Of a DNA stretch of 64,000 nucleotides, positions 16,968 through 54,772 are shown piece after piece. The position numbers and the translations under genes are program-made. Below the pieces are notes generated by a model. It saw only the letters and a program-made list of their open reading frames with translations, did no database searches and was not told the DNA's origin. This DNA comes from a virus. The stretch covers positions 1-64,000 of IMG/VR virus record IMGVR_UViG_3300032770_000013; one strand, given 5' to 3'. The first letter of the stretch is position 1. Every line of letters begins with the position of its first letter.

Positions 16968-17041
16968 TGGTGCCCTCTACAGGTTACGATCCTGTGTCCG
17001 CTCCTTACCAAAGAGCAATTCTGCCATTGAACTAAGAGGGC
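16968..17041 (-). tRNA. tRNA-Thr(GGT)
   Basis: Cloverleaf, CCA end. Confidence 0.88.
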
Positions 17042-17046
17042 GCGAT

Positions 17047-17121
17047 TGGTGCCGGCTGGGTGAATCGAACACCCGCACTCTGCTTACAAGACAGAACCTC
17101 TGCCACTAAGGATAAGCCGGC
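17047..17121 (-). tRNA. tRNA-Thr(TGT)
   Basis: Cloverleaf, CCA end. Confidence 0.9.
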
Positions 17122-17122
17122 A

Positions 17123-17196
17123 TGGTGCTGGTTCCGTGAATCGAACACGGGCAACCTTCTTACGAGGGAGGTGGACTGCCACTATCCTAAGCCAGC
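17123..17196 (-). tRNA. tRNA-Thr(CGT)
   Basis: Cloverleaf, CCA end. Confidence 0.9.
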
Positions 17197-18128: not shown

Positions 18129-19046
18129 CTACAATTTCGCCATCGGCACTATGCCAAGCCGATCGAGCGCATTCCCAATGCAAGCGGCTGGCGTCAGAAT
18201 ATCTCTAAACCTCTCAAACTGCTTGGCATACAGCGCCTTCCAGAACGGCTTGTAGGATTCCGCCTCCCGGTAAAACCCGTCCAAGCTATCCGCAAAGCTG
18301 ATGATCTGATTCCAAGGCGCAGCCAATTCATGCGGCTCCGCAATGACCGGGCGTCCAAGGCTTAATGCCGACGCGCAGCGAGAGGACGACACCAGCCCCA
18401 TTTTCTCAAGGATCCGGATTTGCACGATAATCCGCGCACTCTGCATTTCCAGATCACGGGTCTCCTGCGCCGAAGCCGTTGGGTTATGCAAGGAAATCAA
18501 CTTGACCGTCCCGCGCCGACCAAGCTTCCTGAGAATTTTATATCGCCTGTTCGACACTGAGCCATAAAACCCGAAATCATGATCTGGCTGGCGGATTTGC
18601 GGCCGCATCATGCCGGGAGAATAGCCGAGTTCAATCTGCTCTGTCGGTGCATATTGCCCATACCAATGCGCTGTGTTCGGCACTAGAGCTAAGACGGCAT
18701 CGGCATATTTGGCGGCTTCGGGAAAAAGAGCCTGCCGCAAAACCATAAATCGATCGGCAGCATGATTAAAACCAACAAATCCAGGCTCCTCACAAGGCTC
18801 TTCAGTTGCAACAAAGATGAACCGACAATCATGTAATCTGCGCGCCTCTTTAAGCATGGCAATCGAAAGTAAATTAAATCCTTCAAAAATCAGATTTACA
18901 CCATCCTTTCCACGTAGAAATTCATCGTCCGAATGATCTATTTGATGACCTAAAGATCGGAGTTGATGGACAATAATTTGCGATGGGTCTTGTAATGACA
19001 GCCTGCCAATTTGTGAGTGATTAAAAAGATTTAACCGAAAGCGCAA
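18129..19046 (-). CDS. Glycosyltransferase-like protein (GT-B type)
   Basis: DFGFYGS...RR and VSSSRC...RPVIAE motifs; paralog of 53585-54772. Confidence 0.55.
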   Translation of the reverse strand: MRFRLNLFNHSQIGRLSLQDPSQIIVHQLRSLGHQIDHSDDEFLRGKDGVNLIFEGFNLLSIAMLKEARRLHDCRFIFVATEEPCEEPGFVGFNHAADRFMVLRQALFPEAAKYADAVLALVPNTAHWYGQYAPTEQIELGYSPGMMRPQIRQPDHDFGFYGSVSNRRYKILRKLGRRGTVKLISLHNPTASAQETRDLEMQSARIIVQIRILEKMGLVSSSRCASALSLGRPVIAEPHELAAPWNQIISFADSLDGFYREAESYKPFWKALYAKQFERFRDILTPAACIGNALDRLGIVPMAKL

Positions 19047-19048
19047 AA

Positions 19049-19139
19049 TCGCCTCGCCATACCAAACCGGGCCGATGCCAAAACATGCCTTACCTTTGCG
19101 AGCCGGGGCTTACCAAACTCCAGCATGCCGCACCATAAC
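19049..19139 (-). ncRNA. GGY-NN pentamer tract E (putative guide RNA)
   Basis: About 18 units, ending GGCGAGGCGATTTT. Confidence 0.75.
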
Positions 19140-19157
19140 TCAAAGCGATAAAAAAAT

Positions 19158-19254
19158 CCTCGCCGCGCCACACGCTGCCAGACCGTGCCGTGCCTCAGCA
19201 GACCCCGGCTCGCCCCGACAGGCCACGCAAGACCCGGCCGCAGCGTACCATGCC
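19158..19254 (-). ncRNA. GGY-NN pentamer tract D (putative guide RNA)
   Basis: 19 in-phase units, ending GGCGAGGA-T7. Confidence 0.8.
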
Positions 19255-19277
19255 TCCTTCAAAAATCGCCAAAATAT

Positions 19278-19410
19278 CCTCGCCTAATCCAAACCTCACC
19301 CGGCCTTGTCATACCTTGCCACAGCTCACTGAGCCAAGCCGGGCCGCACTTAACCTAACCTAGCCACGCCCCGCGTTGCCAAATCGCGCCCGGGATCGCC
19401 ATGCCCAACC
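19278..19410 (-). ncRNA. GGY-NN pentamer tract C (putative guide RNA)
   Basis: About 26 units, ending GGCGAGGATATTTT. Confidence 0.75.
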
Positions 19411-19421
19411 GCTCCGCAAAC

Positions 19422-20036
19422 CTACTTGAAGTTTACGATTCCAAAGCGGCCGAATGTCGGCCTAAAATCACCGATGCCGATCAAGCGACCAGCACTTTCA
19501 ATCGTTTCGCGCAAGGCATTGTGATCGACGTATTCCGGCAGCATCACGAGAAGATCAAACGTGACCTTCCAGCCGGCGCGCAAGGCAGGCCGCACGCGGT
19601 TGATACCTTGGCGCTGAATCATAACGCGCCGTTTATCCAAATAATCCCAATCCTTTACGCCGAGAGTGGCGAGCGGACTGGTGACGACAATGGCGGCCTT
19701 GAACAGGTCCATTGCGGACTTCCGCGGTGACCGCGGATCTTGCCGGAATTTCGCCGCGTTGATGATTGAGCCGCGAAGATACTCGCCGGGGACACAGATT
19801 TCACCGGCGTCGTTCCGATAGACGTAGGATTCTACGTCATCGGTCTTTTTGCCTTTGGAATTTTTAGCGGCGCGGGCTTTTTCATCGACCGCCTCGCTAT
19901 TCCATCTGTGCATTAAAAGATCGGCGGCCCCTTGAATCGTCACGCGAACCGGATATGGCTCGCTGTGAGAGATGACTTCGTTGCCACCGGAAGTCGGCTC
20001 AGAAATGTGGATAACTTTAGCTTTAGTTGCAGTCAT
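19422..20036 (-). CDS. Stand-alone RAMP/Cas7-like RNA-binding protein (Vipr-like)
   Basis: VTIQG..DLLMH, VPGEYLRGSI, RVRP and C-terminal G-loop GIGDFRPTFGRF; flanked by pentamer tracts. Confidence 0.75.
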   Translation of the reverse strand: MTATKAKVIHISEPTSGGNEVISHSEPYPVRVTIQGAADLLMHRWNSEAVDEKARAAKNSKGKKTDDVESYVYRNDAGEICVPGEYLRGSIINAAKFRQDPRSPRKSAMDLFKAAIVVTSPLATLGVKDWDYLDKRRVMIQRQGINRVRPALRAGWKVTFDLLVMLPEYVDHNALRETIESAGRLIGIGDFRPTFGRFGIVNFK

Positions 20037-20060
20037 TGTATTTGCTCCATTTTGGTTGAT

Positions 20061-20149
20061 GGAGACCTCACCGCACCGATGCTTGCCCTAGCTTGCCCAA
20101 CGCGACCTGACCAAGCCGCACCAAAGCGCGCCGTAAGCAAAAGGTCTCC
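20061..20149 (-). ncRNA. GGY-NN pentamer tract B closed by a GGAGACC/GGTCTCC stem
   Basis: About 14 units inside a 7-bp inverted repeat. Confidence 0.75.
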
Positions 20150-20269
20150 CCCGCGCTGAGCCTGCTAAGCCCGGAACGCGGTTCAGGGGTCACTTTTCAG
20201 CGACACTCAGACACGGGGAAGTTCGTGAGAGGTGCCGCGTTCTTCGCGTTAGCAGCCGCGAATGGAAAA

Positions 20270-20297
20270 ATAATACCGAAAATAAATCGAATGTCTA
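20270..20297 (-). promoter_or_regulatory. Sigma70-like promoter for tract B and the RAMP gene
   Basis: TAGACA-16nt-TATTAT. Confidence 0.5.
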
Positions 20298-20316
20298 GTG
20301 CCATTCACCAGCCCAA

Positions 20317-20332
20317 TGTTTCACGTGAAACA
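20317..20332. promoter_or_regulatory. parS-like ParB binding site
   Basis: Perfect palindrome TGTTTCACGTGAAACA. Confidence 0.7.
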
Positions 20333-20345
20333 TTTTGGTAATGTC

Positions 20346-20464
20346 GAACGGAGCCCGAAGGCCCCGTTCTCCCTTACCGAAACTCACCGCAGCCAACCGG
20401 ACCGGACAAGACCATGCCGAAGCCCACAACGGCAAACCATACCAAGGCCAGCACAAGCCCCACC
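20346..20464 (-). ncRNA. GGY-NN pentamer tract A with 3' hairpin
   Basis: About 18 units then GAACGGGGCC-TTCG-GGCTCCGTTC; TATAAT upstream at 20478-20483. Confidence 0.75.
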
Positions 20465-20517: not shown

Positions 20518-23500
20518 TCATGTTTTGCGATTCTCAACATGAGCGAACGGCTTGGTGGTCTTACCATGTTCAAGCCATTTTTTGAAATCCGGCAACGTCA
20601 TTTGGTGAATTGCGCCGACACGGTCCACTCCTCGTCCATCTGCAAATGCGCGGTGATAGACATTGGTGGCATGCTTGAGCGATGCCGCGCCAAGAATTAT
20701 TTTGTGCTCATCGAACTTCTTAGTGTCGGCGTCAACTTGATCCACGATGTAAACACATTTCGCTCGCGGGTGGTCGCACAAAAATACGTCTAGGTTATCA
20801 CCATCGGCACCATCGTGGCGTTTCAAATATCCGTAGTGGGCTGGAAGCACGCTCCGCCAAGGACGACCATCCTTATCGATGCCGCGACGGATTCCGCCTT
20901 TGCCATTTTCAATGGTGATCTGAAGTCCGAATTTGTGCAGATGGTCCTTTTTGTAATTCCCCGCTGCGATCTGCGCTTTGCTTGGATGCTTTTCGATATT
21001 CCGCACTTCGACTCTTCCCCCATGCGCCCGCTTTGGCGTCAAATTCTCGATTGCCTCATCCTTCGTCTTTCCGGTCGAGAGTAATTCGCCGTCCTTGTCG
21101 TAGACGCCCCATTTATTGAGCGGGATACCGGTAAACTCAGCCGTCAGACCTTGCGGTAATACTCGGCCGCCGCTGGCTCTTGCCTGCGCCTTTTCCTGCT
21201 GAGAGACCGTTGGCCTGCCCTGCAATTCATTCGATATATCGCTGATCCAGTTATCTTTTTGACCAGTGACGTTCATCATGAAGTTGTCGTACAGCTTTTG
21301 CGGTGTTGATTCGCTGCGCGCATCCTCCACGTTGGTCGACGGTCGAAAGTCCGCGTATGGGTCTGGTGCCGGACCGCCATCAGCTCGCTCAATTCTCTCG
21401 CGCGGCCCTATTGGATCGCTTGGATCGACGTCGGCTGTTTGCCGAGCCATCTGCCATTCGGCGTTGGATTGAGATTCGGGATGATCGTCTGGAGCGCAGA
21501 TAGAGCCGCCTTGGGCCATCCCTTGTGTATTGGTCTTTGCGAATGGATCGTAATCTACGGGAACGGTTTGGAAATGAGATGCACCCCCTGCAACCAATCC
21601 GGCGAGGCCGTATTTCTTGATGATGTCGATCAGCTTGTCGTTGAAGACGACGTAATTTCTGGTCGGATTCTCATATGAATTTATCTGCGCCTGAAGGTTT
21701 TTGATCACGCCTTCATCACCGCGCGCTTGGGCTTTTTCTAAAGCTGTCCGCAGTGCCTGCAATTGAGTCGGTGTCGCGCGAGAGCCTTGGTCTAGATATT
21801 TGATACCGGGGATTCCAGCATCGCGAAGTTGCTGCGCCACGCGCTGAACATCGGTGTGACCTTGGCCCGGCGTATGCAGACTGATTTCATTGTTGCGATA
21901 AATCTGCTCGCCGGTCTGATTCGCGTGCGCTTCTGGATGCGCGAGCCAAGCGTCTTTTAATTTTTGCTGGACAGCCGGACTCTGCTCACTCAGCGGCTTA
22001 TCCCAATCAAGGAAATGCTCGGGATCGGCGTTGATGTTGACTTCGTAGAGATTGCCAGCCTTTGATGGGTATGGTATTTCACTGCGAACATGAAGATCGC
22101 CCTTATCTGCGCTTCTTGCGGCAAGAGCTTCCTCAAGCATCGCAGTGCTTTGAGGCCCAATCAGCGGACGTTTTGCAGTCGCGAGTGCCACGTAAGGGGC
22201 CAGCATATCGACGGCCTTAACGCGGCTGGCTACAAGATTATTCGCGTTGGTAGGAAGCAAGTCTACGAGCATAGATGGATTATTGAGCAAAGCATCGGAC
22301 GTAAACTCCTTCCCACCGAGCATGTGCATCACATCAACGGGAAGAAGTCGGACAACCGCCTTTCCAATCTCCGGGTCTTGGAGGAGTCCACGCATCACCG
22401 GGAGCACGTCGCTCCTACTTTCGACATCGAGCGAGCGAAAGCCCTTTACGAGCAGGGGATTGGATACCGCAAACTTGCCGAAATTTTCGGCGTGGCTCGC
22501 CAAAACATCAGAGGGTGCTTCATACGTAGGGGCTGGCATGTTACCGGCCGTACCCGCCGTTCTATAACTCTCGGCAGTTGATGGATGCTCAGCCAGATAA
22601 ATTCCATGCCCATAAGCCTGTGCGCCTTCGCCGGTGCCGATCTTCGATAGATCGAACTTGTCGAAGTCGTAGGGGCTGCCGTGATAGGCGCGGATGCCTT
22701 GGGGTTGTGGAACTTCGGACAACAAAGGATGAATGAGCTTATCGCTTCCGACATTAGCGGGATCAAACGAATCAAAACGTGATCGCACTTGGCTCGGTTC
22801 AAAGACCATGATGTGCGGACGACCCGGCGTTCCAGTTATCTCCTTCTGCGGATCGCCAATGATCGCATCATATCCAGCGTCCCGAATGGCCTGAGCCTTT
22901 AGCGCCACAGGTGTGTCTTGACCAAGGCCGTGATAAAAAAGCGTGCTGCCGGTCCAGTATTTCAGCGGGCCACCTTCGATCATCTTTTTGGCCTGCTCGG
23001 TGCGGCCGGCGGCTTTCAAAACTTCTGCCGCTTGCTCGGCAGTTATCGGCTGGTCCATGCGAAACGGATTCTGCACTTTGAGCTTGACGGGCATGACGCG
23101 CGGAGTATCGCCGGACCAGGCGCCAGTGTGCTTATTGGCAAATTCAGCGGACGGCGTGAAATAAAAGTTGCCCCCGTATTGTATGTTGTCGCGGACCTTC
23201 ATCGGATCGAAAGCTTCGAACTCCTGCGAGCCAGTCCCGTGGAATGCGTCAATCGTCCAACCTTGCTGTGCGGCTCGCGCCATCCGGCTTGCTTCATCCA
23301 TTGGGAGCGCAGCGCGAGCGGCAGCAGTTAATTCCGGCGCAACCTTTTCGGCCGCCCCCATCGCCACCTTGGCTGCCCGCATTTCCGGCGTCAGCAACCC
23401 GGCAGCCGACATCAGCGCGAAGTTCTGCGCTTCATCGGGCGTCATCTGACCACGCAACGCGCTGATTGCATCATTGACGCCAGTCACATCGCCAGCAACA

Positions 23501-23649
23501 TTGGCGACCTTCCCGGGCATTGATGCTATATCTTGCCCTACAGTCGGTGGCGCAATTGTCTGCCCCGGCTTGGCGACTGGCCCTACCGCGAACGGATCAT
23601 GATCGACCGGAACGAGGTCATAATCAGGCTGCAATTGATCGTCGGGCAC
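20518..23649 (-). CDS. Polyvalent ejected protein: two ADP-ribosyltransferase-like domains and a C-terminal pyrophosphatase-like domain
   Basis: AFHGT..YFTP; AYHGSPYDFDKFD..GHGIYLAE; GNYKK..ITIEN..HYGY..GADGD..FDEHK. Confidence 0.7.
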   Translation of the reverse strand: MPDDQLQPDYDLVPVDHDPFAVGPVAKPGQTIAPPTVGQDIASMPGKVANVAGDVTGVNDAISALRGQMTPDEAQNFALMSAAGLLTPEMRAAKVAMGAAEKVAPELTAAARAALPMDEASRMARAAQQGWTIDAFHGTGSQEFEAFDPMKVRDNIQYGGNFYFTPSAEFANKHTGAWSGDTPRVMPVKLKVQNPFRMDQPITAEQAAEVLKAAGRTEQAKKMIEGGPLKYWTGSTLFYHGLGQDTPVALKAQAIRDAGYDAIIGDPQKEITGTPGRPHIMVFEPSQVRSRFDSFDPANVGSDKLIHPLLSEVPQPQGIRAYHGSPYDFDKFDLSKIGTGEGAQAYGHGIYLAEHPSTAESYRTAGTAGNMPAPTYEAPSDVLASHAENFGKFAVSNPLLVKGFRSLDVESRSDVLPVMRGLLQDPEIGKAVVRLLPVDVMHMLGGKEFTSDALLNNPSMLVDLLPTNANNLVASRVKAVDMLAPYVALATAKRPLIGPQSTAMLEEALAARSADKGDLHVRSEIPYPSKAGNLYEVNINADPEHFLDWDKPLSEQSPAVQQKLKDAWLAHPEAHANQTGEQIYRNNEISLHTPGQGHTDVQRVAQQLRDAGIPGIKYLDQGSRATPTQLQALRTALEKAQARGDEGVIKNLQAQINSYENPTRNYVVFNDKLIDIIKKYGLAGLVAGGASHFQTVPVDYDPFAKTNTQGMAQGGSICAPDDHPESQSNAEWQMARQTADVDPSDPIGPRERIERADGGPAPDPYADFRPSTNVEDARSESTPQKLYDNFMMNVTGQKDNWISDISNELQGRPTVSQQEKAQARASGGRVLPQGLTAEFTGIPLNKWGVYDKDGELLSTGKTKDEAIENLTPKRAHGGRVEVRNIEKHPSKAQIAAGNYKKDHLHKFGLQITIENGKGGIRRGIDKDGRPWRSVLPAHYGYLKRHDGADGDNLDVFLCDHPRAKCVYIVDQVDADTKKFDEHKIILGAASLKHATNVYHRAFADGRGVDRVGAIHQMTLPDFKKWLEHGKTTKPFAHVENRKT
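22090..22581 (+). CDS. HNH endonuclease with zinc finger and HTH, nested antisense within the polyvalent gene
   Basis: CASC..FCSREC; YEHR..VHHINGKKSDNRLSNL; C-terminal HTH. Confidence 0.8.
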   Translation: MKIALICASCGKSFLKHRSALRPNQRTFCSRECHVRGQHIDGLNAAGYKIIRVGRKQVYEHRWIIEQSIGRKLLPTEHVHHINGKKSDNRLSNLRVLEESTHHREHVAPTFDIERAKALYEQGIGYRKLAEIFGVARQNIRGCFIRRGWHVTGRTRRSITLGS

Positions 23650-37800: not shown

Positions 37801-37915
37801 GAAAGGCCGCCACGTTAGCGACGACCTTTCCACCCCTATCAGACCGGAACTCACCAGAACTCACCCGAGCTAACCATAACCGACCTGATCTCACCGCATC
37901 TCGTCTCACCATAAC
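37801..37915 (-). ncRNA. GNY-NN pentamer tract F with 3' hairpin (putative guide RNA)
   Basis: 17 in-phase units then GAAAGGTCGTC/GGCGGCCTTTC stem. Confidence 0.75.
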
Positions 37916-38103
37916 AAATGTTGACGAGAAAGAAATTTGGCGAGGATGCGCCGGACGGCCTCGGAACGGGTAGGCTTGTCCTCTTGAGTTTGCCTCCATT
38001 GATCGATCGCACCGCGTAATTTCACAGGCAATCTTATCGCGGTCACAGGGTCTTGACCTGTCTGCGGCCTTCCTCTTTTTCGTACTACAGGTATTGACCC
38101 CAT
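37906..38103 (-). CDS. Ribbon-helix-helix transcriptional regulator
   Basis: KRGRP.TG.DP..AIRLP..IDQW..PTRSEAVRRI. Confidence 0.7.
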   Translation of the reverse strand: MGSIPVVRKRGRPQTGQDPVTAIRLPVKLRGAIDQWRQTQEDKPTRSEAVRRILAKFLSRQHLLW

Positions 38104-38149: not shown

Positions 38150-38581
38150 ATGACCTACGAAGAATACATCCGTTCGCCGCAATGGCACGCAAAACGCGAA
38201 CTTGCCCTTGCAAGGGACGGATTTCGTTGCCGAGCATGCGATGCAACCGAAAATCTTGAGGTTCACCATCGGCGCTATCCCAAAATTCTTGGCACGGAAA
38301 AAGTAGACGATTTGACAACGCTCTGCGGCGGCCAAAACGGCTGCCACATGGCCATCACTAATCTCCTTCGATCTCGCAGACATGCCTTGGCGACCATCGA
38401 GGCTTCCACAACAGTCCGAATCAGCATTGGACGCATAGAGGTATCTCATGAACTACAAGAACCTGAAATTTCGGATACGCAGCGTTGCACCCCTGCTCAT
38501 GCACAACGGGCAACTGGCGGACCCACTGAACCACCATGTGAAAGAAATGCGCAAGATTACGAGCAAGCGGATCAAAACTGA
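38150..38581 (+). CDS. HNH endonuclease
   Basis: YEEYIRSPQW..RDGFRCRAC..LEVHHRRY..LTTLC..CH. Confidence 0.8.
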   Translation: MTYEEYIRSPQWHAKRELALARDGFRCRACDATENLEVHHRRYPKILGTEKVDDLTTLCGGQNGCHMAITNLLRSRRHALATIEASTTVRISIGRIEVSHELQEPEISDTQRCTPAHAQRATGGPTEPPCERNAQDYEQADQN

Positions 38582-39014
38582 TTCCGACTTGGAACAACTT
38601 GCCAAGCTGGAATGGTTCGGCTCGCTTTACATCAGCAACGGCGTCCCATGCTTGCCTGGAGAACTCGTAGAGGCGACGTTTGTCAACGCCGCCAAAAAGA
38701 CCAAACGAGGCCAACAAGCTAAAGCCGGCATAATTTCGGACGGCTTTTGGCCAGTTGAATACGATGGGCCAAAAGACTTGGAAGAAATGTGGAAAGATGG
38801 ACGGTTTCGGCTCACTACCGCCGTTCGCGTATAGCGCAACAAGGTTATGAGGACACGACCGATCTTTCGACAGTGGGAATCCACTATCCAAATCGACTAC
38901 CTGCCGGATCAATTGGGCGTCAACGAGATCACAGATATCGTCGCCATCATGGGACGATTGATTGGCTTCGGCGATTGGCGTCCGCGTTTTGGACGCTTTG
39001 AAATCGTCTCTTGA
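38448..39014 (+). pseudogene. Second RAMP/Cas7-like gene interrupted by an in-frame TAG (38832-38834)
   Basis: PLLMHN..LPGE; frame continues RNKVMRTRPIF..GFGDWRPRFGRF to TGA at 39014. Confidence 0.75.
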
Positions 39015-39045
39015 CCGCATCGCCCCACGTCACCCTTAGCCCCGC

Positions 39046-53588: not shown

Positions 53589-54772
53589 TTTGATGACATT
53601 AAGCGTCTGGCTTCTGACAGGTCGGAATAACGCATTATTTCGGGATGTTTTCCTAAGTCGATTTCCTCAAGGTATATTCGTCCTGATCGATGAGGGACGG
53701 CATAGATGAAACCGCCCCACTCTACAAGATTAGCTCCACCATAGGATTCAACCAATCGCGCCCGCGGCCCGCTATGCACAACATTTTGCGTGTGGCTGTT
53801 TACCCGGATCAGCTTCTTCGGCGGCCCTTTCGGCGTCTGCACCGCCGGCAGCACCACATCAGGCGGCTTGGGCAGAATAGCTATCGCTTCCGCTATTCTG
53901 CTCGGCTTGCGCTTTAATGCCGCCAATTGCTGCTCGTGCACCTCTTCCCATCGGTCGAGAACTTCCAGCGCAGCATCGTAAAACCCGCCATCCGGCGCAA
54001 ACCGAACTATCCTCGCCCATTCGCCTTGGACCCGCAGCGATCTGGCCTCAGCCACAACCGGCCGACCATACCCGATCGATGTCACATACCGGACCGACGA
54101 TACCAGATCCCACCACGGATATTGCTTAAGATCCAAGACTACACGCGAATACGGCAAGCGCCGATCCCGCTCGGCCAATGGCGTTGAATGCGGGATGACG
54201 TCGACCGAATGCCCGCGATGAATGAATTGGTCGAGCGTCTTGGTTCGGCGCCGGGTCAGGCTCCCGAAAAAGCAGAAATCATATCGCGGCATAACCTTGC
54301 CTCTTACCCTCGCCACGCTGGTCCGCGGCGGCACTATCGTCTTGAACCGCTTGCCCCAGACCATATCAATATCGGCCGCCCGAGGCACAAACCGCCTGAT
54401 AATCTTGGCGGTATCCGGTGCATAGCACCATGCCGCTGTCATATACGGTGCACTCTCAATGAAGCACTCCGCCCGCTCGATCCAGTCGTCCGAGGTGCGG
54501 TAGTTCCAGACCACGCCTTCATCGGTAACCAATGTCGGCTCTTCCGTCACCAGCACAATCATCTGGTAGCCAGCCTCGGCAAGTGATTGCACCAGCCTTG
54601 GATTATTGGTTACTTCGCTGACGCCTTCGGAGAAGATGTTAAACCACGGCGGAGGGAGGAATATCCCGCGATTGACGGCAAATTCATGCCCCAATGCTTC
54701 GATCTGGTCGCGGAGATCGTCTACTTGATCGCCAGCTTGGGCATCGATCGAGAGCATGTAGCTGAAGCGCAT
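53585..54772 (-). CDS. Glycosyltransferase-like protein (GT-B type)
   Basis: TEEP, YDFCFFGSLTRRR, VSSVRY..RPVVAE; paralog of 18129-19046. Confidence 0.55.
   Translation of the reverse strand: MRFSYMLSIDAQAGDQVDDLRDQIEALGHEFAVNRGIFLPPPWFNIFSEGVSEVTNNPRLVQSLAEAGYQMIVLVTEEPTLVTDEGVVWNYRTSDDWIERAECFIESAPYMTAAWCYAPDTAKIIRRFVPRAADIDMVWGKRFKTIVPPRTSVARVRGKVMPRYDFCFFGSLTRRRTKTLDQFIHRGHSVDVIPHSTPLAERDRRLPYSRVVLDLKQYPWWDLVSSVRYVTSIGYGRPVVAEARSLRVQGEWARIVRFAPDGGFYDAALEVLDRWEEVHEQQLAALKRKPSRIAEAIAILPKPPDVVLPAVQTPKGPPKKLIRVNSHTQNVVHSGPRARLVESYGGANLVEWGGFIYAVPHRSGRIYLEEIDLGKHPEIMRYSDLSEARRLMSSK

What the first reader, a model, noticed from the sequence alone, without database searches (positions are those of the whole stretch)
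19887..20149. Tract B decodes to a homolog of the RAMP gene itself
Seen: the reverse-complemented NN string is TC GC GA TT CT TT CA CG TG AA GC AA GC GT, compatible with S-A-D-L-L-F-H-R-W-N-A-(K/N)-A-V. The RAMP gene encodes AADLLMHRWNSEAV at 19887-19928 (20/28 matches), again using TTA and AGA where the guide expects CT and CG. Inference: the guide is aimed at rival copies of the same system, or provides weak autoregulation.
Basis: partly seen in the sequence, partly recalled or inferred. Interest (0 to 1): 0.88.

Follow-up and report, generated by a model that had tools for sequence, protein, structure and literature searches.

The report
VIPR guide RNA targeting rival vipr genes
A phage-encoded gapped guide RNA (a VIPR vrRNA, a system first described in 2026 preprints) sits just upstream of its own RAMP-like vipr gene. 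It is aimed at the vipr genes of related phages, and the phage's own copy is changed at that site so it falls below the published targeting threshold.

Summary
Tract B (20068-20137, minus strand) is 14 GGY-NN pentamers. Its reverse-complemented NN string matches codon positions 1-2 of the adjacent 204-aa gene at 19887-19928 in 20 of 28 places. That is the best hit in the whole 96-kb contig.

The string fits the family consensus SADFLFHRWNAEAV. Exact gapped-pattern scans found 17 loci (15 distinct sequences). All lie in frame in vipr homologues at 27/28, with the skipped base on the freely varying wobble position.

The locus is a VIPR system, described in three 2026 bioRxiv preprints. The protein matches SUSP1 Vipr (PDB 36pp; profile E = 3e-19) and folds like Cas7/Csm3. 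The published rule is a 1-nt skip, at least 80% NN match for targets, and no self hits above 80%. It fits: rivals score 96% and self 71%. Those papers already report vrRNAs that target other phages' vipr genes.

So the interpretation "aimed at rival copies" is supported, and autoregulation is unlikely. The modest new point concerns the resident target site. It carries 4 of the protein's 13 departures from consensus, plus the gene's only TTA and only AGA codon, which suggests self-avoidance. This is a new member of a known kind.

The parts
19422..20036 (-). vipr gene (204 aa), a RAMP/Cas7-like protein that should polymerise on GGY-NN RNA
   Evidence: No Pfam hit; matches phrog_4652. A single-sequence search hits PDB 36pp_D 'SUSP1 Vipr protein' at E=2e-7. 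The family profile A1 hits it at E=3.4e-19 over residues 5-189. The AlphaFold model has pLDDT 93.6. The top Foldseek hits are Csm3/Cas7 subunits.
20068..20137 (-). vrRNA B guide tract: 14 GGY-NN units whose NN bases specify the target
   Evidence: NN positions differ from the 93%-identical relative L005 at 6 of 28 sites, against 6 of 203 elsewhere (Fisher P=0.001).
20061..20072 (-). 3' end of vrRNA B: GGTGAGGTCTCC. This is the GGYGAGG motif shared by the 3' ends of tracts B-E (tract A has only GGTGAG). Its GGTCTCC is the 3' arm of a 7-bp stem.
   Evidence: the centroid fold keeps only this stem.
20143..20149 (-). GGAGACC, the 5' arm of the stem that closes the tract
20150..20265 (-). Leader between the promoter-like site and tract B. 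It is almost invariant between the window and L005.
   Evidence: Alignment A2. The fold is not better than shuffles (z=-1.45). No Rfam family matches.
20270..20297 (-). Sigma-70-like promoter candidate (TAGACA, 16 nt, TATTAT) upstream of vrRNA B and vipr
   Evidence: This is a consensus match only.
19887..19928 (-). The resident counterpart of the target site: codons 37-50 (AADLLMHRWNSEAV), 20/28 = 71% NN match. It includes His43, which aligns with SUSP1 H17, the residue that reads G1 of GGY.
   Evidence: The role of H17 is taken from 10.64898/2026.04.26.720927.
20374..20464 (-). vrRNA A tract, with a one-base register shift
   Evidence: Its best self hit is 18/28, in the polyvalent gene at 20995-21036.
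19286..19415 (-). vrRNA C tract (about 19-26 units); its first units overlap the 3' end of vipr
   Evidence: No self hit above 52%.
19160..19254 (-). vrRNA D tract (19 units), ending GGCGAGGA followed by a U run
19050..19134 (-). vrRNA E tract (12 units, then a one-base shift, then 5 units)
   Evidence: It scores 24/34 against the adjacent 305-aa gene at 18864-18914 (0 of 200 shuffles reach this).

Best explanation
The locus is a VIPR (Viral Interference Programmable Repeat) system in an uncultivated tailed phage.

Inferred mechanism, following the published SUSP1 and P. fulva systems: the 204-aa Vipr protein coats each GGY-NN RNA with one protomer per pentamer. It holds the GGY bases and presents the NN bases. 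These pair with double-stranded DNA that carries the complementary dinucleotides separated by one skipped base, and binding represses transcription.

Shown here by sequence: vrRNA B lies in the leader of the phage's own vipr gene. It is complementary in this gapped way to the sense strand of codons for SADFLFHRWNAEAV in the vipr genes of related phages (27/28). This is the first beta-strand of the RRM core, and it contains the histidine that reads G1 of GGY. The skipped bases fall on wobble positions, so synonymous drift in rivals does not break recognition.

The likely function is therefore to silence the VIPR system of co-infecting or resident relatives.

The resident gene and its clade mates (L005/L006) differ at 7-8 of the 28 informative positions. 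That puts them at 71-75% match to this guide, and L005's own guide scores 68% on its own gene. All are under the 80% level used for natural targets. I read this as self-avoidance. That reading is an inference; the divergence could also be ordinary.
For: Protein:
- The family profile matches SUSP1 Vipr (PDB 36pp) at E=3.4e-19, nearly full length.
- The GGY-contact residues align: H17/H43, R138/R149, D177/D190, W178/F191, R179/R192 (residue roles).
- The fold resembles Csm3/Cas7.

RNA:
- GGY-NN tracts occur only around this gene in the 96-kb contig, apart from one other tract near a second vipr.
- They flank the homologue on the same strand in all 10 IMG/VR loci and in phage DSL-LC04.
- NN bases are hypervariable while GGY bases and the flanks are conserved.

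Target:
- The 26-base specified gapped pattern has 6 exact hits in IMG/VR and 11 in metagenome contigs.
- All hits are in frame in vipr homologues at the same motif, each at 27/28.
- The wobble base varies at 13 of the 14 codons.
- A pattern with 26 fixed bases is expected once per 4.5e15 positions.

Self-avoidance:
- No self hit reaches 80% in the contig.
- The resident protein departs from the 70%-or-higher consensus of 119 homologues at 13 sites. Four of these lie in the 14-codon target (hypergeometric P=0.007).
- The gene's only TTA (1 of 13 Leu codons) and only AGA (1 of 18 Arg codons) are both in the site.
- The clade mate L005 carries a variant guide that scores 82% on rival vipr genes and 68% on its own.
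- Of the tracts of 9-16 units tested in nine loci, only those of this clade decode to vipr.

Literature: the VIPR code, the thresholds and vipr-targeting vrRNAs are described.
Against: - Nothing here shows that vrRNA B is transcribed or processed, that it binds this Vipr, or that it binds DNA.
- The mismatch tolerance of VIPR is not published in the texts I read. A 71% match might still bind weakly.
- This Vipr is only distantly related to the two systems studied experimentally, so the skip rule is carried over by analogy plus the target statistics.
- No vap accessory gene was found next to vipr.
- The guide has AA where all found targets have GA (Glu), so no perfect 28/28 target was seen.
- The excess of resident changes in the site has a twin cluster at residues 75-82 with no known guide. 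Clustering alone is therefore weak evidence for selection.
- No targeted relative was shown to share a host with this phage.
Confidence: 0.85

Rival explanations
1. Autoregulation. vrRNA B lies in the vipr leader and binds the imperfect site inside its own gene (20/28). This would damp vipr transcription as a feedback loop, and the match to relatives would simply reflect common ancestry of the site.
For: The resident site is the best self match in the whole contig. The guide is encoded directly upstream of the gene it resembles. Published VIPR represses transcription from either strand.
Against: The match is 71%, with never more than two consecutive perfect units. The discoverers used 80% or more for targets and found no self hits above that level. 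Rivals match at 96%. An autoregulatory guide should track its own gene, yet both this phage and L005 keep guides that fit foreign alleles better than their own. The site also holds an excess of resident-specific changes.
Confidence: 0.1
2. The guide does target rival vipr genes, but the resident gene's differences at the site are ordinary lineage divergence rather than selected self-avoidance.
For: More distant relatives also have LL rather than FL at this motif (DSL-LC04 AADLLFHRWNCESV; broad consensus LLFHR). A second cluster of four resident-specific changes lies at residues 75-82 without any known guide. The statistics are modest (P=0.007; two rare codons).
Against: Within the 76-85% identity clade the motif is close to invariant, for example F42 in 100% and F40 in 95% of homologues. 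The only TTA and only AGA of the gene both fall in the site. The anti-vipr guide and the divergent allele co-occur in the window and in L005/L006.
Confidence: 0.3
3. The tracts are protein-binding RNA of the TRAP type or form two-layer G-quadruplexes. Only the GGY triplets would matter, the NN bases would be meaningless spacers, and the resemblance to the gene would be chance.
For: This was my first reading, based on the 3+2 periodicity. The self match alone is only borderline significant.
Against: Seventeen exact gapped hits all fall at one motif of one gene family. The clade mate's variant guide hits the same motif. The published biochemistry shows that NN bases specify targets.
Confidence: 0.02

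Closest known systems
VIPR systems (Vipr protein plus vrRNA), bioRxiv 10.64898/2026.04.26.720920 and 10.64898/2026.04.26.720927; model systems are Escherichia phage SUSP1 and a P. fulva prophage
   Same: - A RAMP-like protein that matches SUSP1 Vipr.
- Tandem GGY-NN RNA tracts upstream and downstream of vipr on the same strand.
- Hypervariable NN bases.
- 1-nt-skip, wobble-aligned targets in coding sequence.
- No self hit at 80% or above.
- A phage carrier.
   Different: - The Vipr is only distantly related: single-sequence E=2e-7 over the C-terminal 74 residues, and it has an N-terminal extension of about 26 residues.
- Some tracts are longer (17-26 units, against the 9-16 reported).
- The 3' ends are GGYGAGG plus a U run or a stem, not the SUSP1 pseudoknot tail (not analysed in depth).
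- There is no adjacent vap gene.
- The VIPR type (I-VII) could not be assigned with the data at hand.
vipr-targeting solo vrRNAs of VIPR-null SUSP1-like phages, and vrRNAs of the P. fulva clade that target other VIPR systems (10.64898/2026.10.15.759431, section 8; 10.64898/2026.04.26.720920)
   Same: A phage-borne vrRNA is aimed at early codons of relatives' vipr gene. It is wobble-aligned and scores lower on self than on rivals.
   Different: Here the carrier keeps its own vipr. It must therefore spare its own allele, and that allele differs at 8 of 28 informative positions, including two synonymous six-fold-codon switches. The published vipr-targeting solos sit in phages that have deleted vipr. 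The published self-versus-rival score contrast was described for vrRNA-targeting guides.
Class 1 CRISPR backbone proteins (Cas7/Csm3) with crRNA
   Same: The protein fold is the same (Foldseek E about 1e-7). One protomer binds per repeat unit of guide, with periodic unpaired bases.
   Different: There is no CRISPR array and no other cas genes in the locus. The period is 5 nt, with three bases sequestered and two pairing. The target period is 3. The guide is hard-wired rather than acquired.

Membership tests
VIPR system | Vipr protein: a minimal RAMP (RRM core, G-loop, thumb) homologous to characterised Vipr | tested here: met
   Profile A1 against PDB 36pp_D (SUSP1 Vipr): E=3.4e-19, covering 5-189 of 202 residues. 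AlphaFold model pLDDT 93.6. Top Foldseek hits are Csm3/Cas7 with probability 1.0 and TM about 0.5.
VIPR system | Residues that read GGY in SUSP1 (H17, R138, D177, W178, R179) are conserved | tested here: met
   By HMMER alignment they correspond to H43, R149, D190, F191 (aromatic; P. fulva has Y here) and R192. R149, D190 and R192 are at least 90% conserved in A1.
VIPR system | vrRNAs of tandem GGY-NN pentamers flanking vipr on its strand | tested here: met
   Five tracts of 14-26 units lie at 19050-20464 on the minus strand. The same arrangement is present in 11 related loci.
VIPR system | NN bases hypervariable, GGY bases conserved | tested here: met
   Window against L005: 6 of 28 NN positions differ, against 1 of 42 GGY and 5 of 161 flank positions (Fisher P=0.001).
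VIPR system | Natural targets obey the 1-nt skip rule at 80% or more NN match, with the skip base on the codon wobble position | tested here: met
   Seventeen loci score 27/28 (96%), in frame, with the wobble base varying at 13 of 14 codons. Other skip lengths were not tested.
VIPR system | No self target at 80% or more | tested here: met
   The best self scores in the 95,988-bp contig are 71% (B), 71% (E), 64% (A), 58% (D) and 52% (C).
VIPR system | Conserved structured 3' tail after the repeat tract | tested here: inconclusive
   Tracts B-E end in GGYGAGG followed by a U run or a stem; tract A has only GGTGAG followed by a UUCG hairpin. Tract B is closed by a 7-bp stem. No covariation or pseudoknot analysis was done.
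VIPR system | Accessory vap gene next to vipr | tested here: not met
   vipr is followed directly by tracts C-E. The 147-aa ORF that overlaps the vipr stop codon in DSL-LC04 and the 152-aa ORF in Medea1 have no homologue in the contig. The paper says loci 'typically' include vap, so this is not strictly defining.
VIPR system | vrRNA is expressed, co-purifies with Vipr, and the complex binds dsDNA and represses transcription | not testable with these tools
TRAP-like RNA-binding attenuation system | Only the triplets matter; the spacer bases carry no information | tested here: not met
   The NN string specifies a single motif of one gene family, with 17 exact gapped hits.

The most novel reading that the evidence does not exclude
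A phage that keeps its own VIPR system while carrying an anti-vipr guide stays immune to that guide by recoding its own target. It uses conservative replacements (S37A, F40L, F42M, A47S) and the six-fold-degenerate Leu and Arg codons (TTA, AGA). If so, wobble-skipping guides can be escaped synonymously at Leu, Arg and Ser codons. VIPR-against-VIPR conflict would then be shaping the RNA-reading beta-1 strand of Vipr itself across a family of thousands of environmental phages.
Probability: 0.45. Interest if true: 0.55.

Novelty: new member of a known kind. Interest (0 to 1): 0.4.

Why it matters
This is an independent natural example, from an uncultivated environmental phage lineage, of VIPR's gapped code and of VIPR-against-VIPR targeting. 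The lineage's Vipr family has more than 5,800 relatives in metagenomes.

The guide is aimed at the codons for the strand that reads the guide scaffold, a site the rival cannot easily change.

It also offers a concrete case for two open questions. First, how does a VIPR-positive phage avoid silencing itself? Second, can six-fold-degenerate codons give a synonymous escape route from a code said to block mutational escape? Both are directly testable with the 42-bp resident and rival sites.

Tried and rejected
- My first model was a TRAP-like or G-quadruplex RNA with meaningless spacers. I dropped it.
- Rfam found nothing in the tracts or the leader.
- In phage DSL-LC04, none of the three tracts has a significant gapped match in its own 61.5-kb genome. 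Self-resemblance is therefore not general.
- An all-against-all scan of 43 tracts in the fetched loci found no reciprocal guide against this phage.
- At protein level, only the window's and L005's upstream tracts decode to Vipr; tracts from seven other loci do not.
- Exact gapped scans of IMG/VR with 11-12-unit cores of tract D and tract E found nothing.
- The tract B pattern has no exact hit in 185,579 reference prokaryote genomes, so no host or prophage was identified.
- The sliding-window divergence test against the targeted homologues is biased by how they were chosen. I replaced it.
- The leader fold is not better than shuffles.
- The VIPR type could not be assigned.

Full report
**What is in the sequence.** The window is phage-like, with nearly all long ORFs on the minus strand. 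The 204-aa ORF at 19422-20036 (minus) has no Pfam or NCBIfam match and hits only phrog_4652, of unknown function. Around it, on the same strand, lie five non-coding tracts with a strict 5-nt period of GGY followed by two variable bases. Tract B covers 20068-20137. It has 14 units and is closed by a 7-bp stem (GGAGACC at 20143-20149, GGTCTCC at 20061-20067). It sits 24 nt upstream of the ORF's start codon.

**Checking the observation.**
- The minus strand at 19887-19928 encodes AADLLMHRWNSEAV and matches the string at 20 of 28 informative positions, with TTA and AGA opposite CT and CG.
- This is the best gapped hit of tract B in the window and in the whole 95,988-bp contig.
- Shuffling the order of the units gives a score of 20 or more somewhere in the window in 4-6% of trials. 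Taken alone, the self match is borderline.
- Tract E has its best window hit in its own neighbouring gene: 24/34 at 18864-18914, reached by 0 of 200 shuffles. Tract A ties for its best hit in the polyvalent gene next to it.

**The decisive test: do homologues match better?**
- The protein has more than 5,800 relatives in metagenomes.
- In the 120 closest relatives, the segment aligned to residues 37-50 is SADFLFHRWNAEAV in 65 and within one or two changes of that in nearly all others. Only the resident protein has AADLLMHRWNSEAV.
- The decoded string is S-A-D/E-F/L-L-F/L-H/Q-R-W/C-N/K-A-K/N-A-V. It fits that consensus at 13 of 14 residues.
- At DNA level, an exact scan with the gapped pattern (unit 12 left open, 26 fixed bases) found 6 stretches in IMG/VR and 11 in metagenome contigs.
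- All 17 stretches (15 distinct sequences) lie in frame at this motif, in ORFs 65-82% identical to the resident protein. Each matches at 27/28.
- The skipped base varies at 13 of the 14 codons.
- A 26-base pattern is expected once in 4.5e15 positions, so these are not chance hits.

**What the system is.** A literature search found three 2026 bioRxiv preprints on VIPR.
- Vipr is a minimal RAMP protein. vrRNAs are tandem GGY/NN repeats.
- The NN bases pair with DNA that has one skipped base per unit, and the skipped base usually falls on the wobble position.
- Natural targets were called at 80% or more NN match, and no self hit passed that level.
- The cryo-EM paper shows one protomer per repeat. 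H17, D177, R138, W178 and R179 hold the GGY bases.
- The third paper describes solo vrRNAs that target early codons of relatives' vipr gene.

**Membership evidence.**
- The resident protein hits PDB 36pp 'SUSP1 Vipr protein' directly (E=2e-7) and as a 69-sequence profile (E=3.4e-19, near full length).
- The GGY-reading residues align with H43, R149, D190, F191 and R192.
- The model (pLDDT 93.6) resembles Csm3/Cas7.
- GGY-NN tracts flank the homologue in all 11 related loci examined.
- Between the window and its 93%-identical relative L005, NN positions changed at 6 of 28 sites, against 6 of 203 elsewhere (P=0.001).
- The best self scores in the contig are all 71% or less.
- No adjacent vap gene was found. 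The tail was not analysed beyond the GGYGAGG motif that follows tracts B-E.

**How tract B most likely works.** The target is the sense strand of the codons for the first beta-strand of the Vipr RRM. This strand includes the histidine that reads G1 of the scaffold (alignment; for the role). The site is strongly conserved in rivals, and the guide ignores their synonymous variation. I infer that Vipr loaded with vrRNA B binds rival vipr genes and represses them, disarming the competitor's VIPR. That step is carried over from the published systems and is not shown here.

**Self-avoidance.**
- The resident allele differs from the guide's target at 8 of 28 positions.
- The protein departs from the 70%-or-higher consensus of its 119 nearest homologues at only 13 of 204 positions. 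Four of these (S37A, F40L, F42M, A47S) lie in the 14-codon site (P=0.007).
- The two further mismatches are synonymous: the gene's only TTA among 13 Leu codons and its only AGA among 18 Arg codons.
- The clade mates L005/L006 share the divergent allele. They carry a variant guide that scores 82% on rival alleles and 68% on their own.
- Among tracts of nine loci decoded against 270 Vipr proteins, only those of this clade hit Vipr.
- This fits selected self-avoidance but does not prove it. A similar cluster of changes at residues 75-82 has no known guide.

**Autoregulation.** However, the guide fits foreign alleles much better than its own in two related phages, which is the opposite of what a feedback element needs.

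**Wider pattern.** Tract E decodes to G-I/M-N/K-I/M-F/L-F/L-D/E-G-F/L-N/K-P. Homologues of the neighbouring 305-aa gene read GINxxxEGFTP. They share the I and the P that the resident gene lacks. No target at 80% or above was found for tracts A, C, D or E. The locus therefore seems aimed at kin phages in general, with vipr as one target.

**Verdict.** The thing itself belongs to a kind described in 2026, including guides against other phages' vipr. What this case adds is a new lineage and a clear example of a VIPR-positive carrier whose own allele sits below the targeting threshold, partly through six-fold-codon switches.

Noticed in passing
window 38448-39017 (+), with 37841-37910 (-) and 38150-38581 (+): There is a second vipr-like gene on the plus strand, closer to SUSP1 Vipr (G-loop GFGDWRPRFGRF). 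It is interrupted by one in-frame TAG at 38832-38834. Both halves match PDB 36pp collinearly (residues 3-126 and 133-187, E about 1e-9 each). An HNH-like ORF precedes it. A 14-unit GGY-NN-like tract with alternating GGTGA/GAxxx units lies on the opposite strand, after a small RHH-like ORF (37906-38103). Tract B does not target this copy (14/28). This may be a decayed or read-through second VIPR locus.
   Followed up: partly
window 19050-19134 and 18864-18914 (-): Tract E matches its neighbouring 305-aa gene at 24/34 (0 of 200 shuffles reach this). It shares I and P with homologues of that gene where the resident has V and L. This is the same rival-allele pattern as tract B. No target at 80% or above was found, and the exact 11-unit core has no hit in IMG/VR.
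   Followed up: partly
window 19160-19254 (-): Read in the sense orientation, tract D's NN string decodes to ...L-V-L-G-E/D-G-L-E/D-T-T-L-S/R-V-A..., the TOPRIM-like motif another first-stage note mentions. An exact 12-unit core scan of IMG/VR found nothing.
   Followed up: partly
window 20150-20265 (-): The leader of about 115 nt between the promoter-like site and tract B is almost identical in the window and L005, while the guide itself has diverged. It matches no Rfam family and its fold is not better than shuffles.
   Followed up: partly
window 19794-19817 (-), Vipr residues 75-82: A second cluster of four resident-specific departures from the family consensus (N75, I80, C81, V82). It could be escape from another phage's guide.
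   Followed up: no
window 20313-20336: A palindrome, ATGTTTCACGTGAAACAT, lies between tract A's hairpin and the vipr promoter-like site. It resembles the chromosomal parS consensus (from my own knowledge).
   Followed up: no
window 20518-23649 (-): A 1043-aa polyvalent protein with ART-PolyVal and InPase domains lies directly upstream of the VIPR locus. Tract A's best self hit (18/28) is in its InPase part.
   Followed up: no
window 18129-19046 (-) and 53924-54772 (-): The 305-aa gene downstream of the vrRNA array has a 27%-identical paralogue elsewhere in the contig. Neither has a Pfam match.
   Followed up: no
window 17000-17196 (-): tRNA genes lie close to the locus (Rfam hits at 17050-17121 and 17126-17196).
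   Followed up: no
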